This document shows positions 28,421-29,460 of a stretch of DNA of 64,000 bases, piece after piece. Source of the stretch: Gemmatales bacterium (GTDB lineage Bacteria; Planctomycetota; Planctomycetia; Gemmatales; HRBIN36); the NCBI GenBank assembly GCA_041640595.1, contig JBEPZY010000003.1, positions 540,342 to 604,341 on the forward strand, read 5' to 3'. Positions within the stretch are counted from its first letter, which is position 1, and every line of letters begins with the position of its first letter. The translations under genes were made by a program, and so were the position numbers. The notes beneath the pieces were generated by a model. The model saw only the letters and a list, made by a program, of their open reading frames with translations, did no database searches and had not been told where the DNA came from.

Positions 28421-29460
28421 GGCAACGACTCGCCACCGCAAACCGAACCACTACCTGTTGACCAGAATGACCAACTTCAGCTCGACAATGTCGGGGAAGA
28501 TTATGTTAGCATCTATATTGGGCCGCTGGTAGATGATGAAGCTGTGCGGTTGGTCATATGTGTTAGAGAAGACAAGCATCTATATTGAGCCGTTGGTAGA
28601 TGATGAAGGCCATGTGCTTAGCTATACGGTAACCGGTCTGCCGGACGGCATTGACGTTGTCTATGTTGAGGTTGCGGCAGATGGCAGAGAACCGGGTGCC
28701 TATCTGCAAGGTTATATCGCCTACAGTAACGTGGCCAGCAACGCCCCACCGGTGGATTTTCATGTTATCATGACCGTTACCAAAGAAGGCGATGGGAATA
28801 GTTTCCAAAGCGATAGTTTCACGTGGACGATTAGGGACACATCTAGGTTAGGGTCTATATCTGACCAAGTTTCAAGGGAGGGCGAGTTTATTTTCTGGAT
28901 ACCCCCAGTCGCCAGGACGGAAGGGGAGACTTTGGTGATCCATTATTCGGGATTGCTCTTGGGTCTGGAATACTTTGCAAACTCGGGGCTGGTGTATGGA
29001 TATGTCAGTTACGCTAACATTGCCAGCAATGGTCACGCCCGATCCTTGGAAGTCACCATTTTCGTGAACGACGGGACAGGTATGGAGAGCAAAACCTTCC
29101 AGTGGCAGGTTGAGGATACGAACAGGATTCCTGTTTTGCCGGATGTTAGTATTAGCGAAGGCGACTATATAAACGTGAAAATAAATGCTGAAGACGCGAC
29201 GGGAGCCAGCTTGACGTATGCCGCGGATAACCTGCCCCGGGGTCTAAGAATAGACTCGGCGACAGGACGCATTACTGGAACGGTTTCTTATCGCAACGTC
29301 GGCCCTAGAGAAGGAGTGAGGGAATTCATTATAAGCATTCGCGTTACTGATGGCGAGAGCGAGGATATGAGGACGGTCACCTGGACAGTCCAGGATAAGG
29401 ACTGGTGGTCGGCACCGCCGAACCTGACTAACTCAGAGGGCGAGGATGTGTGCTTTGAAC
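28421..29460 (+). pseudogene. Broken cassette: GND-PPQTEP linker copy followed by three putative Ig domains, frameshifted by a 67-bp insertion/duplication and decaying at about 29460
   Basis: 28390-28460 copies 22871-22915 ([10 protein letters not shown]); 'SYTVTGLPDG', 'YAADNLPRGLRIDSATGRITG'; no start codon; the downstream ORF tail runs into repeats. Confidence 0.75.
28508..28608. repeat. 34-bp duplication of coding sequence around a 33-bp insert (period 67)
   Basis: AGCATCTATATTGGGCCGCTGGTAGATGATGAAG (28508-28541) vs AGCATCTATATTGAGCCGTTGGTAGATGATGAAG (28575-28608). Confidence 0.92.

What the first reader, a model, noticed from the sequence alone, without database searches (positions are those of the whole stretch)
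28496..28650. Clearest case: a 33-bp insert with a 34-bp target-site duplication breaks an Ig-domain reading frame
Seen: AGCATCTATATTG(G/A)GCCG(C/T)TGGTAGATGATGAAG occurs at 28508 and 28575 around CTGTGCGGTTGGTCATATGTGTTAGAGAAGACA. Removing the 67 bp restores ...GEDYVSIYIEPLVDDEGHVLSYTVTGLPDG. This aligns with the downstream domain start EGDYINVKINAEDATGASLTYAADNLPRG. The 'repeat' is therefore former coding sequence duplicated on insertion, not a CRISPR repeat. Established: IS target duplications are usually 2-14 bp and flank much longer elements. Inference: a spacer-acquisition-like integrase acted on an arbitrary target.
Basis: partly seen in the sequence, partly recalled or inferred. Interest (0 to 1): 0.85.

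Follow-up and report, generated by a model that had tools for sequence, protein, structure and literature searches.

The report
Misplaced CRISPR spacer breaks Ig-domain gene
A 67-base insertion that frameshifts a surface-protein gene copy has the size and shape of one CRISPR repeat-plus-spacer unit, so the cell's own CRISPR spacer-inserting enzyme most likely pasted a spacer into the wrong place, as it seems to have done a few hundred times in this genome.

Summary
A 34-nt direct repeat (28508-28541 / 28575-28608, 2 mismatches) flanks a 33-nt unique insert, and removing 67 bp restores a He_PIG reading frame. An intact 814-aa paralogue on another contig carries the same 34 nt once, with no insert, so it shows the empty site. 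Contigs from at least two further metagenome studies bridge both copies, which rules out an assembly artefact.

The unit length (67) equals the period of the genome's type I-B CRISPR arrays (30-nt repeat, 35-40-nt spacers). The 34/33 split is probably 30/37 with four chance matches. My genome-wide script found 269 such scars, each with its own duplicated sequence. They fall only in two classes:
- Period 65-68, duplication mode 30 nt, matching the I-B arrays.
- Period 72-76, duplication mode 37 nt, matching the second array, which lies beside a Cas2-RT-Cas1 module.

A same-genus relative with only the 37-nt system showed only 72-79 scars in a 129-kb sample.

This mechanism is known from laboratory E. 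coli (neo-CRISPR loci). Here it is fixed in a wild hot-spring bacterium, inside former coding sequence. Earlier notes of this scan reached the same reading for this genome and for other genomes.

The parts
28508..28541 (+). First copy of the duplicated target (34 nt apparent; the true duplication is probably 30 nt within it)
   Evidence: It matches paralogue positions 1501-1534 as part of the HSP 28487-28541.
28542..28574 (+). Inserted spacer-like sequence. 33 nt lie between the copies; it is probably 37 nt including 4 bases that happen to match the target flank.
   Evidence: No counterpart in the paralogue. Unique in the genome at up to 3 mismatches. No match in viral contigs or metagenome contigs (exact) or in phages or plasmids (blastn).
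28575..28608 (+). Second copy of the duplicated target. Two transitions relative to copy 1 (G>A at 28588, C>T at 28593).
   Evidence: Homology to the paralogue resumes exactly at 28575. Copy 1 and the paralogue share the other states at these two sites. A diverged filled haplotype in run X6 also has G and C there.
28487..29480 (+). He_PIG (putative Ig) coding fragment, paralogous to an intact 814-aa gene on contig C2
   Evidence: 95.7% identity over 887 nt, no stop codons, dN/dS 0.35. Pfam He_PIG.
28390..28457 (+). Two 25-nt copies 43 nt apart in the Pro/Thr-rich linker. The 43-nt offset shifts the linker from frame 1 to frame 2, a second lesion that is not CRISPR-sized.
29520..29613 (+). Neighbouring scar, period 66 (28-nt copies)
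29647..29754 (+). Neighbouring scar, period 72 (36-nt copies), of the 37-nt-repeat class
   Evidence: Other copies of the dispersed element show the unoccupied site, with an overlap of about 34 nt.
29787..29882 (+). Neighbouring scar, period 67 (29-nt copies)
   Evidence: Four other copies of the dispersed element show the unoccupied site, with an overlap of 28-29 nt.
20910..21010 (+). Second scar in the window with a paralogue-proven empty site, period 66
   Evidence: The paralogue C2:407875-407920 has a single copy. The two HSPs overlap by exactly 30 nt on it.

Best explanation
This is a scar of off-target spacer integration by the genome's own type I-B adaptation module (Cas1b-Cas2, with Cas4). 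The integrase, loaded with a prespacer of about 37 bp, attacked the two strands of an ordinary chromosomal site about 30 bp apart, instead of the leader-proximal CRISPR repeat. Gap filling then duplicated the 30 bp on both sides of the spacer, adding 67 bp and frameshifting a He_PIG gene copy. The two copies were identical at first and have since drifted by two transitions. Shown here: the geometry, the empty site in a paralogue, the uniqueness of the insert, the presence of the allele in other samples, the match to the resident arrays, the genome-wide pattern, and the resident cas genes. Inferred: which enzyme did it, the 30/37 register, the source of the insert, and that the gene copy was dispensable.
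For: Empty site. The paralogue's 34 nt align to both window copies, and the 33 nt between them have no counterpart.

Dimensions. Canonical system A has a 30-nt repeat with periods 66 (165), 67 (108), 65 (36) and 68 (26) of 341 units. This unit is 67.

Genome-wide pattern.
- Unique local duplications cluster only at spacing 65-68 (121 pairs) and 72-76 (155 pairs). Every other spacing from 40 to 140 nt has at most 9, and at most 7 below 131 nt, where twice the unit length begins.
- Duplication length has its mode at 30 for the first class and at 37 for the second. These are the two resident repeat lengths.
- After merging there are 269 events.
- Of the 269 inserts, 253 have no other match in the genome. 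One matches a canonical spacer at 30 of 31 nt. Similar inserts occur only within one locus.

Target preference. The first duplicated base is G on each strand in 35 of 65 events, against a background of 29%. The resident repeat also starts with G on both strands.

Genes. Cas1b, Cas2, Cas4, Cas3, Cas5 and Cas7 lie next to the 30-nt arrays. Cas2, an RT and Cas1 lie next to the 37-nt array.

Relative. G002 (same genus) has one Cas1 and a 37-nt-repeat array. A 129-kb sample of it holds 5 pairs at spacing 72, 74, 74, 76 and 79 and none at 65-68. Of 8 pairs in 400 kb of G006 (another genus), 2 fall at 72-73, one of them part of a tandem repeat; none fall at 65-68 and the other 6 are scattered.

Other samples. 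The filled allele is bridged by contigs in X1/X2 (0 differences; possibly the source sample), in X3 (record 11, 28492-28588, 0 differences) and in X6 (record 19 with 0 differences, record 18 with 9).

More empty sites. In a further 5 of the 269 events a paralogue shows the same split-match signature as this locus. The three good ones, this locus included, overlap by 30, 31 and 34 nt. Other copies of a dispersed element are unoccupied at the 29647 and 29787 scars.
Against: - The literal duplication is 34 nt and the insert 33 nt, not 30 and 37. My reading needs four chance matches, which the same procedure produced in about 3% of canonical units.
- No protospacer source was found for the insert.
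- No leader-like motif lies upstream of the targets. Only a weak G/T preference at the boundaries was seen.
- No enzyme activity was tested.
- The 72-76 class is partly contaminated by protein-coding tandem repeats of 72 or 75 nt, so that count is inflated.
- The relatives were sampled thinly: 129 kb and 400 kb.
- X1 and X2 may be the sample the genome came from.
Confidence: 0.87

Rival explanations
1. The event was made by the second adaptation module (Cas2-RT-Cas1, 37-nt repeat), not by the I-B module.
For: Both modules are present and both seem to leave scars. A 34-nt duplication lies numerically between 30 and 37.
Against: The unit is 67 nt. Canonical units of the 37-nt system are 71-76 nt in the 242 of 244 units covered by the six commonest lengths that one search listed. 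A 37-nt duplication would leave only a 30-nt spacer, outside that system's listed spacer range of 34-39.
Confidence: 0.05
2. An unknown transposase or integrase unrelated to CRISPR inserts short cargo with a stagger of about 34 bp.
For: Taken literally, the numbers (34 + 33) match neither resident system exactly. No enzyme was tested.
Against: The inserts are unique rather than a family. The two size classes and their duplication lengths match the two resident arrays. The relative with one system shows one class. No terminal inverted repeats were seen.
Confidence: 0.04
3. It arose by tandem duplication or replication slippage of a 67-bp unit, or by an assembly error.
For: Direct repeats at short distance are the usual product of slippage. 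The genome is a draft of 42 contigs.
Against: The sequence after the second copy is unrelated to the insert, so this is A-B-A, not A-B-A-B. The paralogue lacks B altogether. The copies differ at 2 sites. Contigs from other studies, one of them a diverged haplotype, bridge both copies.
Confidence: 0.02
4. It is a working mini-CRISPR array or regulatory element kept by selection.
For: The downstream frame stays open for 525 codons. An ATG at 28533, lying in copy 1, reads through the insert into the He_PIG frame. The allele is shared by diverged strains.
Against: The repeat is local coding sequence, unlike the repeat that the resident Cas6-type processing would recognise. Every scar has a different repeat. 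Scars are depleted from long open frames, as expected for harmful insertions.
Confidence: 0.02

Closest known systems
Non-canonical (off-target) spacer integration giving 'neo-CRISPR' loci in E. coli type I-E (Nivala, Shipman and Church 2018, Nat Microbiol 3:310). I could not read the paper itself. I know it from passages that cite it in PMC6698737 and bioRxiv 10.1101/148544, and from recall.
   Same: A spacer-sized insert is flanked by a duplication of repeat length at a non-CRISPR site. Sites can be used again and so grow small arrays: 17 sites of the form A-s1-A-s2-A here, mostly with unrelated inserts.
   Different: That work relied on up-regulated Cas1-Cas2 in the laboratory. According to the citing preprint it had only 'circumstantial evidence' in two other species. 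Here the events are fixed in a wild genome, number in the hundreds, come from a I-B and an RT-linked module, and this one lies in former coding sequence with a paralogue as the empty site.
Off-target integration by Pyrococcus furiosus Cas1-Cas2 in vitro (PMC6698737; passages read)
   Same: Cas1 and Cas2 alone integrate spacers into non-CRISPR DNA at sites that share features with the repeat. Here there is a weak G (then T) preference at both duplication boundaries, like the ends of the resident repeat.
   Different: That was an in vitro plasmid assay. Here the evidence is chromosomal scars, and no strong internal motif was found.
Canonical type I-B spacer acquisition at the leader-proximal repeat
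   Same: Same unit geometry: 30-nt repeat duplication plus a 35-40-nt spacer, period 65-68.
   Different: The duplicated target is not the CRISPR repeat and no leader lies nearby. The product cannot be expected to yield a usable crRNA.
'Ectopic spacer acquisition' in Streptococcus thermophilus and S. mutans arrays (PMC7999890, PMC8265633; search listing and abstract starts only)
   Same: Integration away from the leader-proximal repeat.
   Different: Those events lie inside the CRISPR array at genuine repeats. This one lies far from any array in unrelated DNA.
Casposon and IS/MITE insertions with target-site duplications (recalled; not tested against a library here)
   Same: Staggered integration produces a target duplication.
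   Different: Those carry a long, repeated cargo with terminal repeats and have short duplications. Here the cargo is about 35 nt and unique, and the duplication is 30 nt.

Membership tests
Off-target Cas1-Cas2 spacer integration (neo-CRISPR scar) | The target duplication has the length of the resident CRISPR repeat | tested here: inconclusive
   At this locus the apparent length is 34 nt against a 30-nt repeat. That is compatible with 30 plus 4 chance bases: 9 of 316 canonical pairs also extend to 34. Across the genome the mode is 30 for period 65-68 and 37 for period 72-76. Paralogue-defined overlaps are 30, 31 and 34 nt.
Off-target Cas1-Cas2 spacer integration (neo-CRISPR scar) | Unit length (duplication plus insert) equals the period of the resident array | tested here: met
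   The unit is 67 nt. Canonical periods are 66 (165), 67 (108), 65 (36) and 68 (26) of 341.
Off-target Cas1-Cas2 spacer integration (neo-CRISPR scar) | The insert is a unique, non-repeated sequence that is absent from the unoccupied site | tested here: met
   Only one copy in the genome at up to 3 mismatches. Absent from the paralogue. 253 of 269 inserts genome-wide have no second copy.
Off-target Cas1-Cas2 spacer integration (neo-CRISPR scar) | cas1 and cas2 are present in the same genome, with arrays of matching geometry | tested here: met
   Cas1b (TIGR03641, E 1.4e-127), Cas2 (PF09827, E 1.1e-20) and Cas4 lie beside the 30-nt arrays.
Off-target Cas1-Cas2 spacer integration (neo-CRISPR scar) | Catalysis by the integrase at this kind of site | not testable with these tools
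   This needs an integration assay with the purified proteins or expression in a host.
Off-target Cas1-Cas2 spacer integration (neo-CRISPR scar) | The insert derives from foreign DNA, like spacers | tested here: inconclusive
   No match in the own genome, viral contigs, metagenome contigs, phages or plasmids. The collection scans were exact-match only.
Bona fide CRISPR array | The same repeat recurs, with a leader, and matches the repeat the resident Cas proteins process | tested here: not met
   Only two copies. The repeat is He_PIG coding sequence, present once in the paralogue, and unlike the resident repeats.
IS or MITE insertion | Cargo belonging to a repeated family, with terminal inverted repeats and a short target duplication | tested here: not met
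   The cargo is unique. It is about 33-37 nt long. No inverted repeat was reported within the unit; the one arm that touches the insert pairs with a site 619 nt away.

The most novel reading that the evidence does not exclude
In this lineage two CRISPR integrases, a I-B module and an RT-linked one, act as a lasting endogenous insertional mutagen. Their errors are fixed by the hundred, hit coding sequence as well as junk DNA, and are re-used as targets, so new multi-spacer arrays are being born in the wild. The scars would then be a datable natural record of integrase target choice and of de novo CRISPR array genesis.
Probability: 0.6. Interest if true: 0.75.

Novelty: new member of a known kind. 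Interest (0 to 1): 0.6.

Why it matters
Off-target spacer integration has been shown mainly with over-expressed Cas1-Cas2 in E. coli. How often it happens in nature, and what it costs, is largely unknown. My three literature searches listed no paper describing a wild genome with many such scars.

This locus is an unusually clean natural case. The unoccupied site survives in a paralogue, the insertion frameshifts an open reading frame, and the filled allele is shared by diverged wild strains.

Together with the genome-wide pattern it suggests three things:
- CRISPR adaptation carries a measurable mutational cost.
- That cost is filtered by selection, since scars are depleted from long open frames.
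- The scars offer hundreds of natural target sites from which integrase specificity could be read.

Tried and rejected
- Source of the insert. Searches found nothing: exact 33-mer in viral contigs, inner 26-mer in metagenome contigs, blastn of 28538-28578 against phages and plasmids, own genome at up to 3 mismatches (only the locus itself).
- Relatives for the ancestral allele. 40 relatives searched with 27900-29500 gave no orthologue, only a short linker match in G003. Same-genus genomes are only 66-72% identical in neighbouring genes, too distant for empty-site alignment. The in-genome paralogue served instead.
- A third spacing class (87-95 nt) looked like a third system. It is a dispersed hairpin (REP-like) element family with a shared sequence, unrelated to these scars.
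- Similarity of targets to the canonical repeats is only slightly above random: mean 12.2 against 10.2 of 30, and 13.7 against 12.6 of 37. Three of the 46 class-A targets scored are degenerate true repeats.
- GC content of the inserts (0.549 and 0.587) does not separate them from the genome (0.576) or from canonical spacers (0.551 and 0.570), so it is uninformative.
- The X6 loose end at 28536 reads straight from copy 1 into downstream-like sequence. I could not tell an empty orthologous allele from a paralogue.
- The X3 joint 28457>28499 lies in the repetitive linker and was not interpreted.
- The first attempt to sample G002 returned only contigs of about 600 nt.
- The Nivala et al. paper is not held in the library.

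Full report
**1. The observation**

Reading 28200-29000 and the repeat finder confirm a 34-nt direct repeat at 28508-28541 and 28575-28608. The copies are 94% identical (2 mismatches), start 67 nt apart, and enclose 33 nt. The 34-mer occurs only at these two places in the window at up to 3 mismatches, and none of 100 shuffles gave a match.

Frame 2 reads ...PPQTEPLPVDQNDQLQLDNVGEDYVSIYIGPLVDDE and then runs into a stop inside the insert. Frame 3 reads, from an ATG at 28533, MMKLCGWSYVLEKTSIYIEPLVDDEGHVLSYTVTGLPDG... for 525 codons. Removing one copy plus the insert (67 nt, not a multiple of 3) rejoins the two frames. The downstream ORF has a Pfam He_PIG match (E 5.1e-11).

**2. Direct proof of insertion: an unoccupied site in a paralogue**

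A DNA search of relatives found no orthologue, but it did find a second copy in the same genome (C2:397447-398333, minus strand). That copy is 96% identical, and the match starts exactly at 28575, the first base of the second copy.

Reading that locus shows ...GGGGATTATGTT-AGCATCTATATTGGGCCACTGGTAGATGATCAAG-GCAATGCGCTTAGCTATACAGTAACC.... The 34 nt occur once and are followed directly by the downstream sequence. Pairwise blastn gives two matches whose paralogue coordinates overlap by those 34 nt: 28487-28541 with 1480-1534, and 28575-29461 with 1501-2387. Nothing matches the insert.

The paralogue is an intact 814-aa ORF with He_PIG domains (E 1.6e-30). Both window copies share two states that differ from the paralogue. 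The second copy alone carries two further transitions (28588 G>A, 28593 C>T). So the duplication was made from the local sequence and then drifted.

**3. Not an assembly artefact, and not recent**

Twenty public runs from 15 studies hold at least part of the stretch, 9 of them half or more of its sampled words. Most of these runs are labelled hot springs or microbial mat metagenomes. I laid four of them.
- X1 and X2 each have a 2663-nt contig covering 28100-28658 with 0 differences.
- X3 record 11 covers 28492-28588 with 0 differences, and record 13 covers 28559-28652.
- X6 record 19 covers 28529-28638 with 0 differences. Record 18 covers 28529-28645 with 9 differences, two of them inside the insert, and has G and C at 28588 and 28593.

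The filled allele therefore exists in at least two further studies. It is shared by haplotypes that differ by several percent, and the two mismatches arose after the insertion.

A loose end in X6 runs from copy 1 straight into downstream-like sequence. I cannot tell whether this is an empty allele or a paralogue.

**4. What made it**

The genome has two Cas1 genes and two Cas2 genes.

| | System A | System B |
|---|---|---|
| Location | C8, plus a contig-end array on C10 | C1 |
| Genes | Cas1b, Cas2, Cas4, Cas3, Cas5b, Cas7; a Cmr2-6 set lies next door | Cas2, a group-II-intron-like RT, Cas1 |
| Repeat | 30 nt | 37 nt |
| Spacers | 341, of 35-40 nt | 244 |
| Commonest periods | 66 (165), 67 (108) | 74 (99), 73 (81) |

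The unit at this locus is 67 nt, so it fits system A and not system B.

A 33-nt spacer would be outside system A's range (0 of 341). The same pair-extension procedure gave 34 nt for 9 of 316 pairs in the true 30-nt array. I therefore read the event as a 30-nt duplication and a 37-nt spacer that shares four bases with the flank by chance.

**5. The locus is one of a few hundred**

- In the window, 12 of 19 short-range repeat families have spacing 66-76, each with its own sequence.
- A genome-wide script found local duplications whose sequence occurs nowhere else. They number 121 at spacing 65-68 and 155 at 72-76. Every other spacing from 40 to 140 nt has at most 9 (at most 7 below 131 nt, where twice the unit length begins).
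- A third peak at 87-95 nt is a shared hairpin element family and is unrelated.
- Duplication length has its mode at 30 nt in the first class (29-31 nt in 51 of 140 pairs) and at 37 nt in the second (36-38 nt in 50 of 194).
- Merging gives 269 events.
- Period distributions follow those of the canonical arrays.
- The 72 and 75 values are over-represented in the second class. Some of these are protein-coding tandem repeats, so that class is somewhat inflated.
- Of the 269 inserts, 16 match elsewhere in the genome. One of these matches a canonical spacer (30 of 31 nt), and a few are exact self matches.
- Inserts resemble each other only within a locus (11 pairs).
- The first duplicated base is G on either strand in 35 of 65 class-A events, against a 29% background, and is then often T. 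The resident repeat likewise starts with GT on both strands.
- The copies are perfect in 23 of 269 events. They differ by 8.6% on average (452 transitions, 292 transversions), so most scars are old and older ones must escape detection.

**6. More empty sites**

- Twelve of the 269 events have a paralogue that spans both flanks without the insert. This locus is not among them, because only 21 nt upstream are homologous.
- With the split-match test, 6 of 269 qualify. The overlaps are 25, 22, 44, 30, 34 and 31 nt. The three with flanks at 89% identity or more give 30, 34 (this locus) and 31.
- One of these is in the window. For the 20910/20976 scar (period 66), the paralogue C2:407875-407920 has one copy, and the two matches overlap by exactly 30 nt.
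- The region 29475-29990 belongs to a dispersed element family. Other members are unoccupied at the 29647 scar (overlap about 34 nt) and at the 29787 scar (overlap 28-29 nt).

**7. Covariation with the CRISPR content of a relative**

G002 (same genus) has one Cas1, of the system-B size, followed by a 37-nt repeat very like system B's. In the 129,441 nt of G002 that I could sample there are 5 such pairs, at spacing 72, 74, 74, 76 and 79. Two of them have 36-nt copies, and none lies at 65-68.

In 400 kb of G006 (same family, another genus) the 8 pairs lie at 42, 49, 72, 73, 116, 117, 130 and 132. The samples are small, but they point the expected way.

**8. Selection and context**

After removing the insert in silico, only 61 of 269 events (23%) lie in a stop-free span of 300 codons or more, against 72% of 2000 random positions. 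This fits the loss of insertions that hit working genes. Events are also clustered: 81 neighbouring pairs lie within 1 kb of each other.

This locus sits in a 588-codon open span and is one of the minority inside coding sequence. The gene copy was probably already dispensable, for four reasons:
- No ATG, GTG or TTG start gives an ORF of 40 aa or more in the upstream frame.
- A 43-nt-spaced duplication shifts the Pro/Thr linker from frame 1 to frame 2.
- Homology to the paralogue ends at about 29461-29480, where the dispersed element begins.
- dN/dS against the paralogue is 0.35 (17 synonymous and 21 non-synonymous differences), which does not decide the matter.

The locus lies in a lower-GC stretch (0.51-0.53 against about 0.60), together with LRR and CDI-toxin-like genes.

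**9. Comparison with what is known**

The closest known process is non-canonical spacer integration giving neo-CRISPR loci in E. coli (Nivala et al. 2018). I could not read that paper. One citing paper says it suggests spontaneous generation of CRISPR loci (PMC6698737). A citing preprint says natural evidence was 'circumstantial' in two other species (10.1101/148544).

P. furiosus Cas1-Cas2 also integrates off-target in vitro at sites that share features with the repeat. 'Ectopic' acquisition in streptococci refers to events inside arrays (listing and abstract starts only). My three searches listed no report of a wild genome with many such scars. The library lacks most subscription journals, so this is not proof of absence.

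Earlier notes of this scan reached the same reading for this genome and report similar scars in other genomes. I had formed my reading before opening them, and I tested it independently here.

**10. Verdict**

The kind of event is known. The new elements are its natural fixation, the I-B origin, the coding-sequence target and the paralogue-proven empty site.

Noticed in passing
window 29475-29990: A dispersed, MITE-like element family, 72-91% identical to a dozen or more loci on C1, C2, C3, C4, C8, C9 and C12. It abuts the point where homology of the He_PIG fragment to its paralogue ends, and it carries three to four CRISPR-sized scars, of both size classes, within about 550 nt.
   Followed up: partly
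genome-wide, e.g. G000:C1:764202-765077 and C2:38532-39835: A REP-like hairpin element (core like AAGAGCGGCGGGCGTCAGCCCGCCGTGG) recurs in pairs 87-95 nt apart at many loci. It mimics a third 'period' but is a shared sequence family.
   Followed up: partly
window 13811-14106 and 20538-20753: Whole 74-nt (4 copies) and 72-nt (3 copies) units repeated in tandem at 82-89% identity, insert included. These look like scars amplified by unequal recombination rather than by new acquisitions.
   Followed up: no
G000:C1:328964-329160 and 16 other sites: Sites of the form A-s1-A-s2-A, and in one case three units in a row, mostly with unrelated inserts (one pair 62% and one 53% alike). An off-target duplication was apparently used again as a target, so small new arrays have grown.
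   Followed up: partly
G000:C8:21408-21979: Three scars of period 66-68 lie between the leader end of the large 30-nt array (which ends near 21080) and cas2 (22207-22422), that is, in or beside the leader region.
   Followed up: no
G000 contigs: Scar density differs widely between contigs: 0 in C6 (256 kb), 1.2 per 100 kb in C7, 2.3 in C1, and 11.4 in C2. The cause is unknown.
   Followed up: no
window 28390-28457: Two 25-nt copies 43 nt apart in a Pro/Thr-rich linker shift the reading frame. Similar linker sequence occurs in the He_PIG gene at 21390-23612 and in relative G003.
   Followed up: no
window 23525-25045: An ORF with a C-terminal CDI_toxin_EC869-like nuclease domain (E 2.2e-14), followed by small ORFs without a family. 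This is a polymorphic-toxin-like locus in the lower-GC stretch at 24-30 kb.
   Followed up: no
G000:C1:356211-359470 (L009): The adaptation module of the 37-nt array is Cas2, a 101-aa ORF without a family, a group-II-intron-like reverse transcriptase (550 aa) and Cas1. Its scars could therefore include RNA-derived inserts.
   Followed up: no
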